Source of the DNA: a virus
IMG/VR virus record: IMGVR_UViG_3300020175_000005
Span: 1 to 64,000 of that record
DNA length: 64,000 bases
Strand: one strand, 5' to 3'
The position numbers and the translations under genes are program-made. The notes under the pieces were generated by a model, which searched no databases, was not told the DNA's origin, and saw only the letters and a program-made list of their open reading frames with translations. Below, in pieces: positions 28,281 to 63,093 of this stretch (position 1 is its first letter; the number at the start of each line of letters is the position of its first letter).

Positions 28281-28377
28281 TGGAGATGGGGAGGGAATCG
28301 AACCCTGCTTGAACACTCTGCTTCATCCGCCTGCCCTGGATTTAACGAAACAGCATAGCACACCTTGCCAGCCCATC
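28281..28377 (-). ncRNA. tRNA-like RNA with aberrant, extended anticodon arm
   Basis: GATGGG/CCCATC-T-CCA acceptor; T-arm AGGG-TTCGATT-CCCT; D-like hairpin TGGCA/TGCTA; 9-bp CTGTTTCGT/ATGAAGCAG arm. Confidence 0.7.
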
Positions 28378-28388
28378 AGTTGTATTTA

Positions 28389-28472: not shown

Positions 28473-28560
28473 TGGCAGACAGGGTGGGATTCGAACCCAC
28501 GGAACCTTTCGGTTCGCCGGATTAGTAATCCGGTGCCTTAAGCCTCTCGGCCACCTGTCC
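28473..28560 (-). tRNA. tRNA-Ser (ACT)
   Basis: CCGGA-TTACTAA-TCCGG anticodon arm, long variable arm, G73, CCA. Confidence 0.9.
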
Positions 28561-28566
28561 TAAAAA

Positions 28567-28764
28567 TTAATCTTCTAGTTTCTTCTCGTGATTTTCCTCA
28601 ATGCGCTTTTGTACAGCTGCTTTGGGTCTTCCACGTTGCCATTTCAAGATAATATCCTCATCTTCTGTCTTTGCGCCAGGTGGACATTTAGTAATTTTAT
28701 TTCCCCTTGCCAACCATTGTTTAACGGCCTTACTTTCAGCTTCTGATGTTTTAAGTCTTGCCAT
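28567..28764 (-). CDS. small protein, possible SutA-like RNAP-binding motif
   Basis: AVKQWLARGNKITKCPPG. Confidence 0.6.
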   Translation of the reverse strand: MARLKTSEAESKAVKQWLARGNKITKCPPGAKTEDEDIILKWQRGRPKAAVQKRIEENHEKKLED

Positions 28765-28787
28765 ATATGTTTTTTACTTCCTTGTTT

Positions 28788-28872: not shown

Positions 28873-28875
28873 AAT

Positions 28876-29178
28876 TTATTCTTGAGTATGGCTAGGTGTT
28901 GTTTCCAACATTGTCGCCATTTTGTTAATATAATTTTCTATCTGATGAGGTTTTAAAAACCCTCTTACTTGATCATCAGAATGTGTTACTGGAGGAAACG
29001 ATACCATTGTATCTCCTTTAAAGATGCCTAGCTCATATCGTTCTAATTCAAAACCATAGCTACCAGCATGTCTTACAATGCTCATACGATAGTCAGAATC
29101 TTGAAATTTAACAATTGCTTGAATAGCATTGTTTCCTAAATGAGGAACATCATTAAATTTTAGATCATCAAACTTCAT
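28876..29178 (-). CDS. conserved phage hypothetical protein
   Basis: F...Y.MSIVRH.GSYG....YELGI...DDQVRGFL. Confidence 0.75.
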   Translation of the reverse strand: MKFDDLKFNDVPHLGNNAIQAIVKFQDSDYRMSIVRHAGSYGFELERYELGIFKGDTMVSFPPVTHSDDQVRGFLKPHQIENYINKMATMLETTPSHTQE

Positions 29179-29193
29179 CGTTTCTTCCTTTAT

Positions 29194-31256: not shown

Positions 31257-31871
31257 CTATTCAATGTCAAGCATTAAATCAATATTATTTTGGTGGTAGC
31301 TTTCTAAAGACTGGGGGAATAGTGTGGATATTCCAACTGCATGGGCTATCAAGTCCCATTCTGATTGTTCTTTTTTGACAAATAGCTCACTATAGTCTAT
31401 GTTTATCACCTCACCAGTTAACAGATTACTAAAATGTTTATAATGTTGGTTTTGTTTAAGATGACATTTGTGATTAGGATATCCTCGATCACGTTGGGCT
31501 CTCAAATATATGTCAGTGTCGCCGCCATCACGGTGCCACTTCTTAACCAGTGCCAAGCAGTCGACGAACCCAGCGTATTCATCTGGATGTATGATAATAG
31601 TTAACCGGTCTTGCAAATAATTTAATATTTCTTGATAGCGTGTTGCAGTATATACTTTAACTGTTTGATCTTTTAATTTAAAAAACTCATGTAAATGACA
31701 TAGTCCTACTTGGCTATTTGGGCGCAATGACCATTCGTTATTTCTTATTGGAAAATAACTATCACTTTCCATTCCCAGATAATCATTTATTATTTGACAT
31801 AATAGATTTCCACCAGTGCCTGGAGGGAAAACAATATTCACTTCGCTATTATTAAATAATCTATAAACCAT
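31257..31871 (-). CDS. sulfotransferase-like hypothetical protein
   Basis: FPPGTGGNLL loop, IDYSELF; TATAAATA 5 nt upstream. Confidence 0.6.
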   Translation of the reverse strand: MVYRLFNNSEVNIVFPPGTGGNLLCQIINDYLGMESDSYFPIRNNEWSLRPNSQVGLCHLHEFFKLKDQTVKVYTATRYQEILNYLQDRLTIIIHPDEYAGFVDCLALVKKWHRDGGDTDIYLRAQRDRGYPNHKCHLKQNQHYKHFSNLLTGEVINIDYSELFVKKEQSEWDLIAHAVGISTLFPQSLESYHQNNIDLMLDIE

Positions 31872-31876
31872 AGTGT

Positions 31877-31899
31877 TATTTATAATCGTAGGATAAATA
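31877..31899. promoter_or_regulatory. back-to-back divergent late promoters
   Basis: TATAAATA on minus (31877-31884) and ATAAATA on plus (31893-31899), each a few nt before an ATG. Confidence 0.7.
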
Positions 31900-31904
31900 G
31901 TATT

Positions 31905-32228
31905 ATGGAAAAAGAAGCTGAAACAATTGTACAATTTTTAACTCCATACTTAGTATTACTGTTAGCTGGTATACTAGGACTTTGGATGAAAGATCTTATT
32001 GGTGATTTAGTCGCAGGCATACGATGGAAAATGAAACCAGGATTCGAGCCTGGTGATCAAGTTTTTCTAGATGGTGAAAAGGCTATTATCGTAAGCATAG
32101 GGATCACCCAAACTATATTTCAAATTGACAATGGCAGAGGGACAGTGTGGAGATATGTACCAAACACAAGAGTACATTATCTAAGACTGGAACGAATAGT
32201 TAAACTACCGGTGACGAAAAATGATTGA
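31905..32228 (+). CDS. small MscS-like (mechanosensitive channel beta-domain) membrane protein
   Basis: TM helix, then GDQVFLDG..IVSIGI..T...YVPN. Confidence 0.65.
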   Translation: MEKEAETIVQFLTPYLVLLLAGILGLWMKDLIGDLVAGIRWKMKPGFEPGDQVFLDGEKAIIVSIGITQTIFQIDNGRGTVWRYVPNTRVHYLRLERIVKLPVTKND

Positions 32229-57110: not shown

Positions 57111-57111
57111 T

Positions 57112-57612
57112 GTGCGACTATTCTGTTGCTAGGTCAGTCGCCAACCCCCACGTGCTTAAATTAAGCCGCTAATGCCATTTCTGGCGCTTTATTTGCGTTT
57201 GCAATTAAAAAGTTTGTTCGCGGTAACGGCGCTTACATCCCGGTAACTCCACTCTTCTATCCTGCCTGTCGATCCTATTTCGACCCCATCATAAACACAC
57301 TATTCAAACCAAAGTAGGAAATCCATACTTCCTGTAATATTATATAATACGATTAGTATCATACAAAACCACAGTAGCCAAAATAACCAAAAGCCTAAAA
57401 ATCTGTACACCTTTTCCATAGGCAAATACTTTTCTAGAAGTGTAGTGATATCCCACACATATCTAAATTGTAGGAACCAACAAAACCATCTTACGTATTT
57501 GTTAGGTGTATTTTCTTTTGTTATCTTAGTCATTATTCCCTAATGTGTTTATGGTGGAGTCGCTGGGTACCGCCCCCAGGTCCAGTTCAGTCGTCAAATT
57601 GCTTCAACGTTA
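57112..57612 (-). ncRNA. ssrA: two-piece (circularly permuted) tmRNA
   Basis: Acceptor piece ...GGACCTGGGGGCGGTACCCAGCGACTCCACCA (CCA 57552-57554) precedes the coding piece GGGGTCGAAATAGGATCGAC (5' end 57287); G3-U70 pair; tag ANANKAPEMALAA* (57161-57202). Confidence 0.95.
57300..57533 (-). CDS. Trp-rich membrane protein inside the tmRNA intervening segment
   Basis: 77-aa ORF, AGGGA RBS, hydrophobic C-terminal half; stop codon lies in the closing stem. Confidence 0.65.
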   Translation of the reverse strand: MTKITKENTPNKYVRWFCWFLQFRYVWDITTLLEKYLPMEKVYRFLGFWLFWLLWFCMILIVLYNITGSMDFLLWFE

Positions 57613-57618
57613 CAATAC

Positions 57619-57626
57619 TATTTATA
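57619..57626 (-). promoter_or_regulatory. T4-like late promoter for the tmRNA
   Basis: TATAAATA just upstream of the acceptor piece; a TTGACA also lies at ~57644-57649. Confidence 0.7.
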
Positions 57627-57660
57627 ACATATGTATTCAGAGTTGTCAAGTATTAAATAA

Positions 57661-62079: not shown

Positions 62080-62220
62080 ATGAGAGCGTTTAACGTCTGC
62101 TCTCATAAGACGGCACGGGTTTGCCGGCATCATTCATTCAATTATTTCAAAAGAGGAATGAAACTCTTTACAGTCCTGATACCTAACCGTAGGTATTGGC
62201 GTGCTTATTAAGTAGCAACC
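62080..62220 (-). ncRNA. tandem H-type pseudoknot RNA
   Basis: Two textbook pseudoknots (62080-62112, 62133-62169) plus further hairpins. Confidence 0.6.
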
Positions 62221-62231
62221 CTTATTATAAT

Positions 62232-62307
62232 TGGTGGAGCGTATCGGGATCGAACCGATGACCCCCTGCTTGCAAAGCAGGTGCTCTCCCATCTGAGCTA
62301 ACGCCCC
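62232..62307 (-). tRNA. tRNA-Ala (TGC)
   Basis: G3-U70, loop TTTGCAA, CCA. Confidence 0.95.
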
Positions 62308-62439
62308 AATTAAAATTTACTCTTCTATGTCTTTCCTAACGTGTGTGGCTCGACACTGTCCATTTTAAATATTACCATATTGGTACGAGCTTCCTAATTA
62401 CTATATATCTATTTATGATATTAGTGTGTATATGCTAAC

Positions 62440-62640
62440 AGTTCAACGCTTTCGCTCCACGCTTCGCACTAACGACAAACACCTGCCGGCATACTTGCAT
62501 CGACCCTTTTGTTGTGACTGCGAACTCACTTCATCATATGGGACTTGGTAACCCATACTAGTTAGTGGCAAACTAACGTGTCCTTTAAACACCGAGCAGT
62601 TTTGGGACCTACTCAGGTCATCCTGGGCACCATTTGCTCA
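62440..62640 (-). ncRNA. candidate ~200-nt multi-pseudoknot ncRNA
   Basis: GC-rich non-coding spacer with about 6 hairpins and three complementary loop/downstream pairs. Confidence 0.6.
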
Positions 62641-62673
62641 ATTGTTTAACAAGGGGAACAAAACCCTTTAACT

Positions 62674-62758
62674 TGGTACGAGTAAGAGGACTTGAACCTC
62701 CACGCATTGCTGCACTAGAACCTAAATCTAGCGTGTCTACCAATTCCACCATACTCGC
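62674..62758 (-). tRNA. tRNA-Leu (TAG)
   Basis: Loop TTTAGGT, variable arm, CCA. Confidence 0.95.
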
Positions 62759-63020: not shown

Positions 63021-63093
63021 TTGTCAAATAACGTGTTAATGTCTTTGCATCAACTTATGTATTCAATATAACGTATAATGATGTCGTTGTCAA
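63021..63093 (-). promoter_or_regulatory. tRNA-operon promoter with boxA-like element
   Basis: TTGACA-17-TATATT (63065-63093), then CGTTATTTGACAA (63021-63033). Confidence 0.6.

What the first reader, a model, noticed from the sequence alone, without database searches (positions are those of the whole stretch)
62440..62640. Ornate ~200-nt ncRNA between tRNA-Leu(TAG) and tRNA-Ala
Seen: a GC-rich spacer with no credible minus-strand ORF. It contains a pseudoknot GACC/GGTC + GAGTA/TGCTC, and hairpins GTGTT/GACAC, GTTAGT-TTGCC-ACTAAC, TATGGG/CCCATA, GTGA-GTTCGCAG-TCAC and GC-GAAA-GC. Two loops have downstream complements: TTGCC/GGCAG and a perfect TTCGCA/TGCGAA. Established: large structured ncRNAs of unknown function (manA, GOLLD, ROOL motifs) occur near tRNA genes in phages and prophages. 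Whether this is a known or new class cannot be judged by eye.
Basis: partly seen in the sequence, partly recalled or inferred. Interest (0 to 1): 0.7.

Follow-up and report, generated by a model that had tools for sequence, protein, structure and literature searches.

The report
New structured RNA in phage tRNA arrays
The flagged spacer holds two separate conserved RNA modules, and the larger one (about 160 nt) belongs to an undescribed family of folded non-coding RNAs that occupy a tRNA slot in the tRNA gene arrays of uncultured marine jumbo phages; its job is unknown.

Summary
The 366-nt spacer between tRNA-Leu(TAG) and tRNA-Ala holds two independent cassettes on the tRNA strand.

- **M2 (62424-62583):** a roughly 160-176-nt RNA made of seven helices in series.
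- **M1 (62584-62672):** a smaller hairpin motif that occurs elsewhere without M2, or in a different order relative to it.

About 30 M2 copies were recovered from uncultured phage contigs.
- On an alignment not fitted to any structure, 97.8% of pair cells are paired, against 30-43% when partners are slid. Ten pairs show compensatory changes.
- A covariance model recovered held-out divergent copies and copies lacking the search seed.
- M2 always lies on the tRNA strand. It usually starts a few nt after one tRNA and ends 5-18 nt before the next. It is single-copy in each of the five records searched whole.
- It matches no Rfam 15 family, no cultured phage and not T4 RNAC/RNAD. Frame-breaking indels rule out a conserved ORF.

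Its loop-to-downstream pairings are not conserved, and its GAGTA/TGCTC pseudoknot arm stays unresolved.

Best reading: a stable RNA cut out by tRNA-processing enzymes that acts in trans; function unknown.

First readers of this scan noted what looks like the same motif in two other genomes.

The parts
62424..62583 (-). M2 RNA. It is a member of a new structured-RNA family found in phage tRNA arrays. It has a short leader, seven helices (H1, H2, H3, H4, H5, P6, P7), an apical hairpin and an AUACAC tail.
   Evidence: Model R1 matches here at 174.4 bits, E 2.8e-44. Family covariation is shown.
62561..62577 (-). H1 hairpin: GUUAGU, loop UUGCC, ACUAAC.
   Evidence: Relatives carry GUUGAGG/CCUCGAC, GUUGGG/CCCAAC, GUUAGG/CCUAAC or GCAAG/CUUGC instead. 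Three of its 6 pairs show double changes on A7 and 5 of 6 on A8.
62537..62557 (-). H2 hairpin: UAUGGG, 9-nt loop UUACCAAGU, CCCAUA.
   Evidence: Relatives carry UACGGA/UCCGUA, UAUGCC/GGCAUA or UAUAGG/CCUAUA. The helix is 100% paired on A7, and 3 pairs show double changes.
62514..62529 (-). H3 hairpin: GUGA, loop GUUCGCAG, UCAC.
   Evidence: Held-out divergent copies carry CUGU/ACAG, ACUGU/ACGGU or GUGAG/CUCAU. All 4 pairs show double changes on A8.
62473..62498 (-). H4 (GCA, loop AGUA, UGC) directly followed by H5 (CGGCA, loop containing GUGU, UGUCG).
   Evidence: Both are almost invariant, partly because the 18-mer used for the search lies here. Copies found without the seed do vary: L082 has GAA/UUC in H4, a compensatory change. 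H5 shows G-U to G-C exchanges, and double changes in L043 and L045.
62432..62469 (-). 3' domain. It comprises P6 (GUGC/GCAU), P7 (GCG/UGU), an internal loop GGAG...GUUGA and the apical hairpin GC-GAAA-GC.
   Evidence: Three of P6's 4 pairs show double changes, including AU:8 CG:5 UA:4. P7's middle pair is CG:11 GC:5 AU:2. In relatives the apical hairpin is replaced by CAGG..CCUG, CCUCUA..UAGAGG and others of different length.
62426..62431 (-). Conserved 3' tail AUACAC (UACAC invariant). Its ACAC can pair with the invariant GUGU in the H5 loop, giving a possible pseudoknot.
   Evidence: Paired in 24-25 of 25 sequences, but neither side varies, so the pairing cannot be tested.
62584..62672 (-). 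M1, a separate conserved hairpin cassette. It has hairpin AAGGG-UUUUGUUC-CCCUU and a long stem UUGAGCA/UGCUCGG. That stem encloses the conserved stretch AAUGGUGCCCAGGAUG and the inner hairpin GACC-UGAGUA-GGUC.
   Evidence: A 21-mer from it occurs in 10 IMG/VR contigs. L046 and a window paralog have AAGAG/CUCUU. L048, L044, L047 and L049 have GUCC/GGAC. On A9, 92.5% of cells are paired against 35-53% when slid.
62308..62423 (-). AT-rich trailer between M2 and tRNA-Ala. It is specific to this phage lineage and may contain a decayed tRNA-Leu 5' end (GCTCGTA..TATGGT).
   Evidence: It is present only in the window and the L002 type. The resemblance to the trailer plus tRNA-Leu(TAA) of L038 is weak: z 3.1, reached by 5 of 500 shuffles.
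62674..62758 (-). tRNA-Leu(TAG), upstream neighbour on the same strand.
   Evidence: ARAGORN and the Rfam tRNA model.
62232..62307 (-). tRNA-Ala(TGC), downstream neighbour on the same strand. RNase P cleavage at its 5' end would set the 3' end of the M2 transcript.
   Evidence: ARAGORN and Rfam identify the tRNA. The cleavage is inferred.
63065..63093 (-). Promoter-like site TTGACA-17-TATATT at the head of the operon that runs tRNA-Thr, tRNA-Leu, M1, M2, tRNA-Ala.
   Evidence: It matches 11 of 12 consensus positions. This is a consensus match only.

Best explanation
**Shown**
- The spacer carries two independent conserved RNA cassettes on the tRNA strand.
- The main one, M2 (62424-62583), belongs to a previously undescribed family of ~160-176-nt RNAs; one copy is 222 nt.
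- M2 folds into a series of helices: three 5' hairpins (H1-H3), two short hairpins (H4, H5), and an extended 3' stem-loop (P6, P7, apical hairpin of variable length). The linkers are conserved: UAG, UGAUGA(GA)A, AACAAAAGG, CGAU, GGAG...GUUGA and a 3' AUACAC.
- It is a single-copy resident of the tRNA arrays of uncultured marine jumbo phages, where it takes the place of a tRNA.

**Inferred**
- M2 is transcribed from the array promoter as part of the poly-tRNA precursor.
- It is released by the enzymes that mature the neighbouring tRNAs. 3' trimming of the upstream tRNA sets its 5' end, and RNase P at the next tRNA sets its 3' end.
- It persists as a stable RNA that acts in trans. Most likely it serves as a protein-binding scaffold or decoy through its conserved loops and linkers, as is suspected for T4 RNAC and RNAD.
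- The molecular target is unknown.

M1 (62584-62672) is a second, smaller conserved motif. It recurs next to tRNA genes and is not part of M2.
For: **Family membership**
- An 18-mer scan gave 29 stretches, 26 of which are true copies. A pseudo-ORF trick gave 6 metagenome loci.
- Model R1 scores held-out copies at 91-142 bits. It finds copies lacking the seed at 75-160 bits.

**Structure**
- On MAFFT alignment A7, which was not fitted to any structure, 97.8% of pair cells are paired against 30-43% with slid partners. Ten pairs show double changes against 1-3 with slid partners. No shuffle out of 500 reaches the observed values.
- On the model alignment, 23 of 31 pairs show double changes, spread over all seven helices.
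- An unbiased scan for stacked pairs returns H2, H1, H3, H5 and P6 as the top five.
- Many G-U pairs make the fold specific to the tRNA strand.

**Context**
- All 31 copies lie on the tRNA strand. Twenty of 31 model matches (which include a ~6-nt leader) begin within 2 nt of the upstream tRNA's end, and 18 end 5-18 nt before the next tRNA.
- There is one copy per record, including a 300-kb record rated 86% complete.

**Not coding**
- Linker indels of 1 or 2 nt shift every frame, while the nucleotides stay conserved.

**Not a known family**
- No Rfam match.
- No match in 50,697 phage records or in E. coli genomes.
- No meaningful match of R1 to T4 rnaC or rnaD.

**Transcription (weak)**
- Marine metatranscriptome contigs cover the spacer at 100% identity (X2).
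- A 250-nt RNA-library contig from another study spans 62334-62583 and ends exactly at the 5' edge of M2.
Against: - No strand-specific raw reads, ends or abundance could be examined. Contigs from RNA libraries can come from contaminating DNA, and in X2 the depth over M2 (50-160) is similar to that over flanking DNA.
- No binding partner or target was identified. No Ro60/TROVE gene was found in five records.
- Folding energy is no better than for shuffled sequence.
- In this window M2 does not abut a tRNA on either side: 90 nt upstream and 116 nt downstream. Excision by tRNA processing is therefore less direct here than in most relatives.
- The search seed lies in H4/H5, so the conservation seen there is partly an effect of how copies were found.
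Confidence: 0.6

Rival explanations
1. M2 is a cis-acting processing or folding element of the poly-tRNA precursor. On this reading it serves as a spacer that guides RNase E or RNase P, or keeps neighbouring tRNAs from misfolding, and has no life of its own after cleavage.
For: It is always inside tRNA arrays, on the tRNA strand, and flush with tRNA ends. Trailers just before the next tRNA often end in AAUU.
Against: - Each of the five records searched whole has only one copy, although arrays have dozens of tRNA junctions that do without it.
- Its tRNA neighbours differ from phage to phage: Ser, Ala, Trp, Arg, Met or Asn upstream, and Gly, Leu, Glu, Gln or Pro downstream.
- Seven helices with conserved loops are far more than a cleavage guide would need.
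Confidence: 0.15
2. M2 is a selfish or decaying cassette: tRNA-derived debris or a small mobile DNA element that spreads between tRNA arrays without benefit to the phage.
For: - The 94-nt 5' domain is identical in four different array contexts whose shared tRNAs are only 72-96% identical. This suggests lateral exchange.
- tRNA remnants lie beside it in L037 and L039.
- H2 resembles a T arm with two extra loop bases.
- GCAAGUAUG, UAGUGC and GCGUGGAG recall tRNA-Leu.
Against: - Compensatory changes in all helices show selection on the RNA fold, not decay.
- By eye there are no terminal inverted repeats or target duplications (no repeat search was run), and there is one copy per record.
- The similarity to tRNA-Leu is not significant (z 1.9-2.3).
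- The Rfam tRNA model does not match it.
Confidence: 0.08
3. One reading: 62440-62640 is one ornate ~200-nt RNA, held together by a pseudoknot and by loop-to-downstream tertiary pairings.
For: All the listed complementarities exist in this window. In M1 the loop GAGUA / UGCUC pairing changes to AAGCA / UGCUU in most relatives.
Against: - The two halves occur apart, or in reverse order, in other phages.
- TTGCC/GGCAG and TTCGCA/TGCGAA are not kept in the family.
- GTGTT/GACAC straddles the module border.
- L042 breaks the M1 pseudoknot pair while keeping the competing long stem.
Confidence: 0.03
4. The region encodes a small protein: the 49-aa GTG ORF at 62443-62592, or a micro-ORF starting at the conserved AUG in CGAUGCAAG.
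For: ORFs exist. A gene caller predicted an 81-aa product over a relative (P0001). AAGG lies shortly before the AUG in many copies.
Against: - Indels of 1 or 2 nt in linkers and in the H5 loop change the frame between copies, while the nucleotide sequence stays conserved.
- The predicted start of P0001 lies inside a tRNA gene.
- The AAGG is missing in L056, L073 and L053.
Confidence: 0.02

Closest known systems
Bacteriophage T4 RNAC and RNAD (species 1 and 2 stable RNAs; rnaC 139 nt, rnaD 119 nt, in the T4 tRNA region)
   Same: - They are small non-coding RNAs encoded inside a phage tRNA gene cluster, on the tRNA strand and directly next to a tRNA.
[quoted passage not shown] That they are cut from the tRNA precursor is from my own knowledge.
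- Their biological role is still unknown (PMC3014915).
   Different: No detectable homology. With filters off, model R1 gives nothing meaningful on rnaC or rnaD; the best score in the T4 region is 9 bits, and it lies elsewhere. blastn of M2 finds no cultured phage. M2 is also longer and has a different helix layout.
Large ornate phage-associated RNAs near tRNAs (GOLLD, ROOL; Rfam)
   Same: They are structured RNAs of unknown function found in phages and prophages, often beside tRNA genes.
   Different: Those RNAs are 400-800 nt with multi-way junctions and pseudoknots. M2 is about 160 nt and a linear series of hairpins. No Rfam family matches, even at E up to 10.
Bacterial and phage Y RNAs (YrlA, RF02553), partners of Ro60/Rsr
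   Same: Small structured RNAs found in phage tRNA islands, some of them tRNA-like.
   Different: M2 gives no YrlA match; the sub-threshold YrlA hits fall on real tRNAs. M2 has no closing stem formed by its 5' and 3' ends. No TROVE/Ro60 gene was found in five M2-bearing records.
tRNA
   Same: M2 occupies a tRNA slot in the array. H2 resembles a T arm whose loop has two extra bases. Short blocks recall tRNA-Leu.
   Different: ARAGORN and the Rfam tRNA model do not detect it. No acceptor stem or CCA end is apparent (by eye), and it is twice the length of a tRNA. The similarity to tRNA-Leu is not significant.

Membership tests
Any Rfam 15 family | A covariance-model match at or above the family's gathering score. 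| tested here: not met
   There is no match on M2 or M1 at gathering score. At E up to 10, the only hits in this window are chance-level ones to TMV_UPD-PK1 and a Tetrahymena snoRNA, at E 4.5-4.9. Four loci carrying other M2 copies (one also with M1) give none, searched up to E 5.
T4 RNAC/RNAD-type stable RNAs (by homology) | Sequence and structure similarity to T4 rnaC or rnaD. | tested here: not met
   R1 searched against T4 69800-72600 with filters off. Nothing above 9 bits, and nothing meaningful on rnaC or rnaD.
T4 RNAC/RNAD-type stable RNAs (by kind) | Non-coding, inside a phage tRNA cluster, on the tRNA strand and abutting tRNA genes. | tested here: met
   All 31 copies are on the tRNA strand, and most are flush with tRNA ends. 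Frame-breaking indels show it is non-coding.
T4 RNAC/RNAD-type stable RNAs (by kind) | Accumulates as a discrete stable RNA after processing of the tRNA precursor. | not testable with these tools
   Only assembled contigs from RNA libraries were available. One 250-nt contig ends at the 5' edge of M2, which is a hint and not proof.
tRNA | A cloverleaf with acceptor stem, T loop and anticodon loop. | tested here: not met
   ARAGORN and RF00005 find all flanking tRNAs but not M2.
Y RNA (YrlA) with Ro60 | A Ro-binding stem formed by the two RNA ends, and a Ro60/TROVE gene in the genome. | tested here: not met
   No covarying helix closes the two ends. TROVE is absent from five records, while the control genomes were detected. 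The records are fragments, so absence is not proof.
Conserved structured RNA (general criterion) | Helices maintained by compensatory substitutions across homologs. | tested here: met
   H4 is also supported by a copy found without the seed.

The most novel reading that the evidence does not exclude
M2 is a dedicated trans-acting effector RNA that jumbo phages deliver together with their tRNAs. It could be a decoy or sponge for a host factor that targets tRNA or RNA, or for a translation factor. It could also be a new small ribozyme whose conserved linkers (UGAUGAGAA, AACAAAAGG, GGAG...GUUGA) form an active or binding core. The identical 94-nt 5' domain in four array contexts would then reflect strong selection or recent spread of a useful weapon.
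Probability: 0.15. Interest if true: 0.8.

Novelty: new member of a known kind. Interest (0 to 1): 0.6.

Why it matters
Phage tRNA arrays are usually read as codon-usage or anti-defence tool kits made of tRNAs alone. The roles of the non-tRNA RNAs inside them (T4 RNAC and RNAD) are still unknown (PMC3014915).

This family gives a second, well-defined example, with about 30 natural variants and a secondary structure fixed by covariation. It is embedded in the arrays of large marine phages that also carry tmRNA, Clp proteins and (per earlier scan notes, not checked here) translation factors.

It is a concrete target for processing assays, pull-downs and structure work. It can also be submitted as a new RNA family, so that these spacers stop being annotated as empty.

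Tried and rejected
- **Folding energy.** Not informative as evidence: z -0.2 to -1.8 for most constructs.
- **Neighbour-gene route.** Relatives at 41-45% protein identity (L008, L012, L029, L030) carry small ORFs, not this RNA, in the equivalent spacers.
- **Exact patterns from the window-type 5' domain.** Four patterns found only near-identical copies.
- **Host origin.** A 19-mer scan of 185,579 prokaryote genomes gave two chance hits. That 19-mer is specific to the window subtype, so prophage or host copies of other subtypes are not excluded.
- **Long-range helix.** The helix proposed by RNAalifold on five near-identical copies (5' end with the second GUUAGU) is broken in L038 and was dropped.
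- **Closing helix GUGUWUG/CAUACAC.** Seven and three unpaired cells at two positions, and no covariation. Only GUGU/ACAC remains as an untestable possible pseudoknot.
- **Kissing of the H1 loop with the H2 or H3 loops.** Checked by eye and not conserved. The unbiased scan found no covarying tertiary helix.
- **Homology of the 3' half to tRNA-Leu.** Not significant.
- **SD plus AUG micro-ORF.** Neither the frame nor the SD is conserved.
- **RNA-library contigs.** They cannot show strand, ends or level. Parts without cover are not evidence.
- **More distant relatives.** Five related phage records (L013, L009, L028, L027, L015) gave no R1 match. All are fragments.
- **rRNA or other mimicry.** blastn against E. 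coli genomes found nothing. This test is insensitive.

Full report
**Setting.** The window is the first 64 kb of a 98.5-kb IMG/VR virus record that CheckV rates 27% complete. It is therefore a fragment of a jumbo phage.
- It carries 18 tRNA genes on the minus strand and a permuted tmRNA.
- The finding lies in the 366-nt spacer 62308-62673, between tRNA-Leu(TAG) and tRNA-Ala(TGC).
- A promoter-like site, TTGACA-17-TATATT, sits upstream at 63093-63065.

**Checking the observation.**
- The stretch is richer in G+C (0.44-0.50) than the nearby AT-rich intergenic stretches (0.25-0.37).
- Folding energy gives no support. The z-score is -1.56 for the spacer, -1.78 for 62430-62650, and -0.6 for the 163-nt stretch spanning the core (62420-62582).
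- Rfam 15 gives nothing at gathering score, and only chance-level hits up to E = 10.

**Finding relatives.**
- Neighbouring proteins led to a 97.6%-identical contig (L002). They also led to distant relatives whose equivalent spacers hold small ORFs instead.
- A 20-mer from the region then hit L032. There only window 62424-62580 is present, at 96.8% identity. It sits directly after a tRNA-Trp that is only about 80% identical to the window's, and the flanks are unrelated. This defined a discrete module.
- A pseudo-ORF translation of the module was used as bait. It gave a predicted 'protein' (P0001) and six metagenome loci. In these the module follows tRNA-Arg, tRNA-Ala or tRNA-Trp.
- The finding is therefore two cassettes: M2 (62424-62583) and M1 (62584-62672).

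**The M2 family.**
- L049, brought in by an M1 pattern, carried a diverged M2 copy.
- An 18-mer shared with that copy found 29 stretches, 26 of them true copies.
- The three 5' hairpins keep their shape with different sequences:
  - H1: GUUAGU/ACUAAC, GUUGAGG/CCUCGAC, GUUGGG/CCCAAC, GUUAGG/CCUAAC, GCAAG/CUUGC.
  - H2: UAUGGG/CCCAUA, UACGGA/UCCGUA, UAUGCC/GGCAUA, UAUAGG/CCUAUA.
  - H3: GUGA/UCAC, CUGU/ACAG, GUGAG/CUCAU.

**Testing the M2 structure.**
- I tested seven helices on a MAFFT alignment of 19 copies that was not fitted to any structure:
  - 97.8% of cells are paired, against 30-43% when partners are slid.
  - Ten pairs show changes on both sides, against 1-3 when slid.
  - The covariation score is 0.306, against 0.02-0.12.
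  - None of 500 shuffles reaches the observed values.
- A covariance model built from these 19 copies scored the held-out divergent copies at 91-142 bits.
- It also found copies that lack the seed: L043 and L045 at 75 bits, and later L082 at 160 bits and L083 at 76 bits.
- On the model-fitted alignment, 23 of 31 pairs show double changes, in all seven helices.
- L082 carries GAA/UUC where the others have GCA/UGC in H4. This is a compensatory change in a copy found without the seed.
- An unbiased scan of all column pairs for stacked, mostly paired runs returns H2, H1, H3, H5 and P6 as the five best. It finds no further covarying helix.
- Frequent G-U pairs place the RNA on the tRNA strand.

**Architecture of M2 in the window.**

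| Element | Sequence | Coordinates |
|---|---|---|
| Leader | GGACAC | 62583-62578 |
| H1 | GUUAGU / ACUAAC | 62577-62561 |
| Linker | UAG | |
| H2 | UAUGGG / CCCAUA | 62557-62537 |
| Linker | UGAUGAA | |
| H3 | GUGA / UCAC | 62529-62514 |
| Linker | AACAAAAGGGUCGAU | |
| H4 | GCA-AGUA-UGC | |
| H5 | CGGCA...UGUCG | H4 with H5: 62498-62473 |
| Linker | UUA | |
| P6 | GUGC / GCAU | |
| P7 | GCG / UGU | |
| Internal loop | GGAG...GUUGA | |
| Apical hairpin | GC-GAAA-GC | P6 to apical: 62469-62432 |
| Tail | AUACAC | 62431-62426 |

- In relatives the apical hairpin is replaced by other hairpins of other lengths. One copy (L071) has a much larger insertion there.
- GUGU in the H5 loop and ACAC in the tail are both invariant and complementary. 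A pseudoknot between them is possible but cannot be tested.

- TTGCC/GGCAG is paired in only 40-88% of sequences per position. TTCGCA/TGCGAA is paired in 40-100%. Neither shows double changes.
- A G-to-A change in L002 and L032 already breaks the 'perfect' pairing. Four of the bases involved form P6 instead.
- GTGTT/GACAC spans the border between M1 and M2.
- In M1 the GACC/GGUC hairpin is supported: L048, L044, L047 and L049 have GUCC/GGAC.
- The GAGUA/UGCUC pairing competes with the longer stem UUGAGCA/UGCUCGG. L042 breaks the former and keeps the latter. This point stays unresolved.

**M1.**
- A 21-mer from M1 occurs in 10 IMG/VR contigs.
- Its first hairpin, AAGGG-UUUUGUUC-CCCUU, becomes AAGAG...CUCUU in L046 and in a paralogous half-copy at window 62120-62175.
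- On the M1 alignment A9, 92.5% of cells are paired against 35-53% when slid. Only two pairs show double changes.
- M1 is thus a real conserved motif, with thinner support than M2.
- An earlier follow-up on 62080-62220 had noted this hairpin as widely conserved.

**Context and distribution of M2.**
- All 31 copies examined lie on the same strand as the tRNAs.
- Twenty of 31 model matches (which include a ~6-nt leader) begin within 2 nt of the upstream tRNA's end. Eighteen end 5-18 nt before the next tRNA.
- The neighbouring tRNAs differ between phages.
- Each record has one copy, including a 300-kb record rated 86% complete.
- Five more distant relatives with tRNA arrays gave no match, but all are fragments.
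- No cultured phage among 50,697 records carries it at blastn sensitivity. E. coli genomes do not either.
- Runs holding the window's stretch are nearly all labelled marine or seawater metagenomes, from 13 studies.

**Coding potential.** Indels of 1 or 2 nt in the H2-H3 linker and in the H5 loop shift every frame, while the nucleotides around them stay conserved. The upstream end of the predicted P0001 product lies inside a tRNA gene. M2 is therefore non-coding.

**Expression.**
- Only assembled contigs from RNA libraries could be laid on the region.
- One marine metatranscriptome covers the whole spacer at 100% identity. Its depth is similar to that of the flanks.
- A second study has a single 250-nt contig, 62334-62583, that ends at the 5' edge of M2. 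A third has 62360-62539.
- This is compatible with a transcript running from the start of M2 towards tRNA-Ala. It does not prove one.

**What it most likely is.**
- Shown: M2 is a conserved, strand-specific, non-coding folded RNA that occupies a tRNA slot.
- Inferred: it is co-transcribed with the array and released by tRNA-maturation nucleases, then acts in trans as a stable RNA.
- The conserved unpaired segments and loops point to a protein or RNA partner rather than to a mere spacer.
- The nearest known analogues are T4 RNAC and RNAD. They sit in the T4 tRNA region next to tRNA-Arg, and their roles are unknown (PMC3014915).
- M2 is not homologous to them.

**Unexplained.** The 94-nt 5' domain is identical in the window, L038, L037 and L039. 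In L032 and L040 it differs by one inserted base. Yet the tRNAs these phages share are only 72-96% identical, and M2's own 3' domain is only about 64% identical between the window and these loci. This means either recent lateral exchange of the cassette or very strong constraint.

**Link to the rest of the scan.** First readers of this scan flagged what looks like the same motif in two other genomes (e1-5835280, e1-5825991).

Noticed in passing
window 28282-28378 (-): ARAGORN calls a 97-nt tRNA-Phe with anticodon AAA here. The Rfam tRNA model does not report it. It is either a doubtful call or an unusual tRNA.
   Followed up: no
window 28473-28560 (-); also L070, L052, L068, L049, L071, L043: A tRNA-Ser with anticodon ACT is present here and in many relatives. 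This anticodon is unusual: bacteria normally use GCT. It is the commonest upstream neighbour of the M2 RNA.
   Followed up: no
window 62120-62175 (-): This stretch is a paralog of the 5' half of M1 (AAAGAG-UUUCAUUC-CUCUUU, then UGAAAUAAUUGAAUGAAUGAUGCC). It lies downstream of tRNA-Ala, inside the region that an earlier follow-up read as an mRNA leader with pseudoknots.
   Followed up: partly
L039:3245-3281 and L037:3245-3280: Between M2 and M1 lies a 33-nt remnant of the 3' end of tRNA-Leu(TAG): T arm, acceptor strand and CCA. In L039 it is 32 of 33 identical to the window's tRNA-Leu. The arrays seem to be reshuffled at tRNA ends.
   Followed up: partly
window 62380-62400 (-): GCTCGTA..TATGGT..AATA after AATTAG resembles the trailer plus 5' end of the tRNA-Leu(TAA) that follows M2 in L038. 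It may be a decayed tRNA. Support is weak: z 3.1, reached by 5 of 500 shuffles.
   Followed up: partly
window 62486-62577 (-) compared with L038, L037, L039, L032/L040: The 94-nt 5' domain of M2 is identical across four array contexts whose shared tRNAs are 72-96% identical. The cause is either lateral exchange or extreme constraint, and it remains unexplained.
   Followed up: partly
window 57111-57653 (-): A permuted two-piece tmRNA scores 108 bits against the Rfam alpha_tmRNA model. A related tmRNA is found in L004.
   Followed up: no
window 31316-31399 (+): A weak H2-like stretch (CATGGGCTATCAAGTCCCATCTGAT) lies antisense to ORF 31257-31934. Model R1 gives E 0.49, so it is probably chance.
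   Followed up: no
window 28873-29193 (-) and 28561-28787 (-): Other spacers in the tRNA arrays hold small ORFs preceded by Shine-Dalgarno sequences. These tRNA arrays mix tRNAs, small ORFs and RNA cassettes.
   Followed up: no
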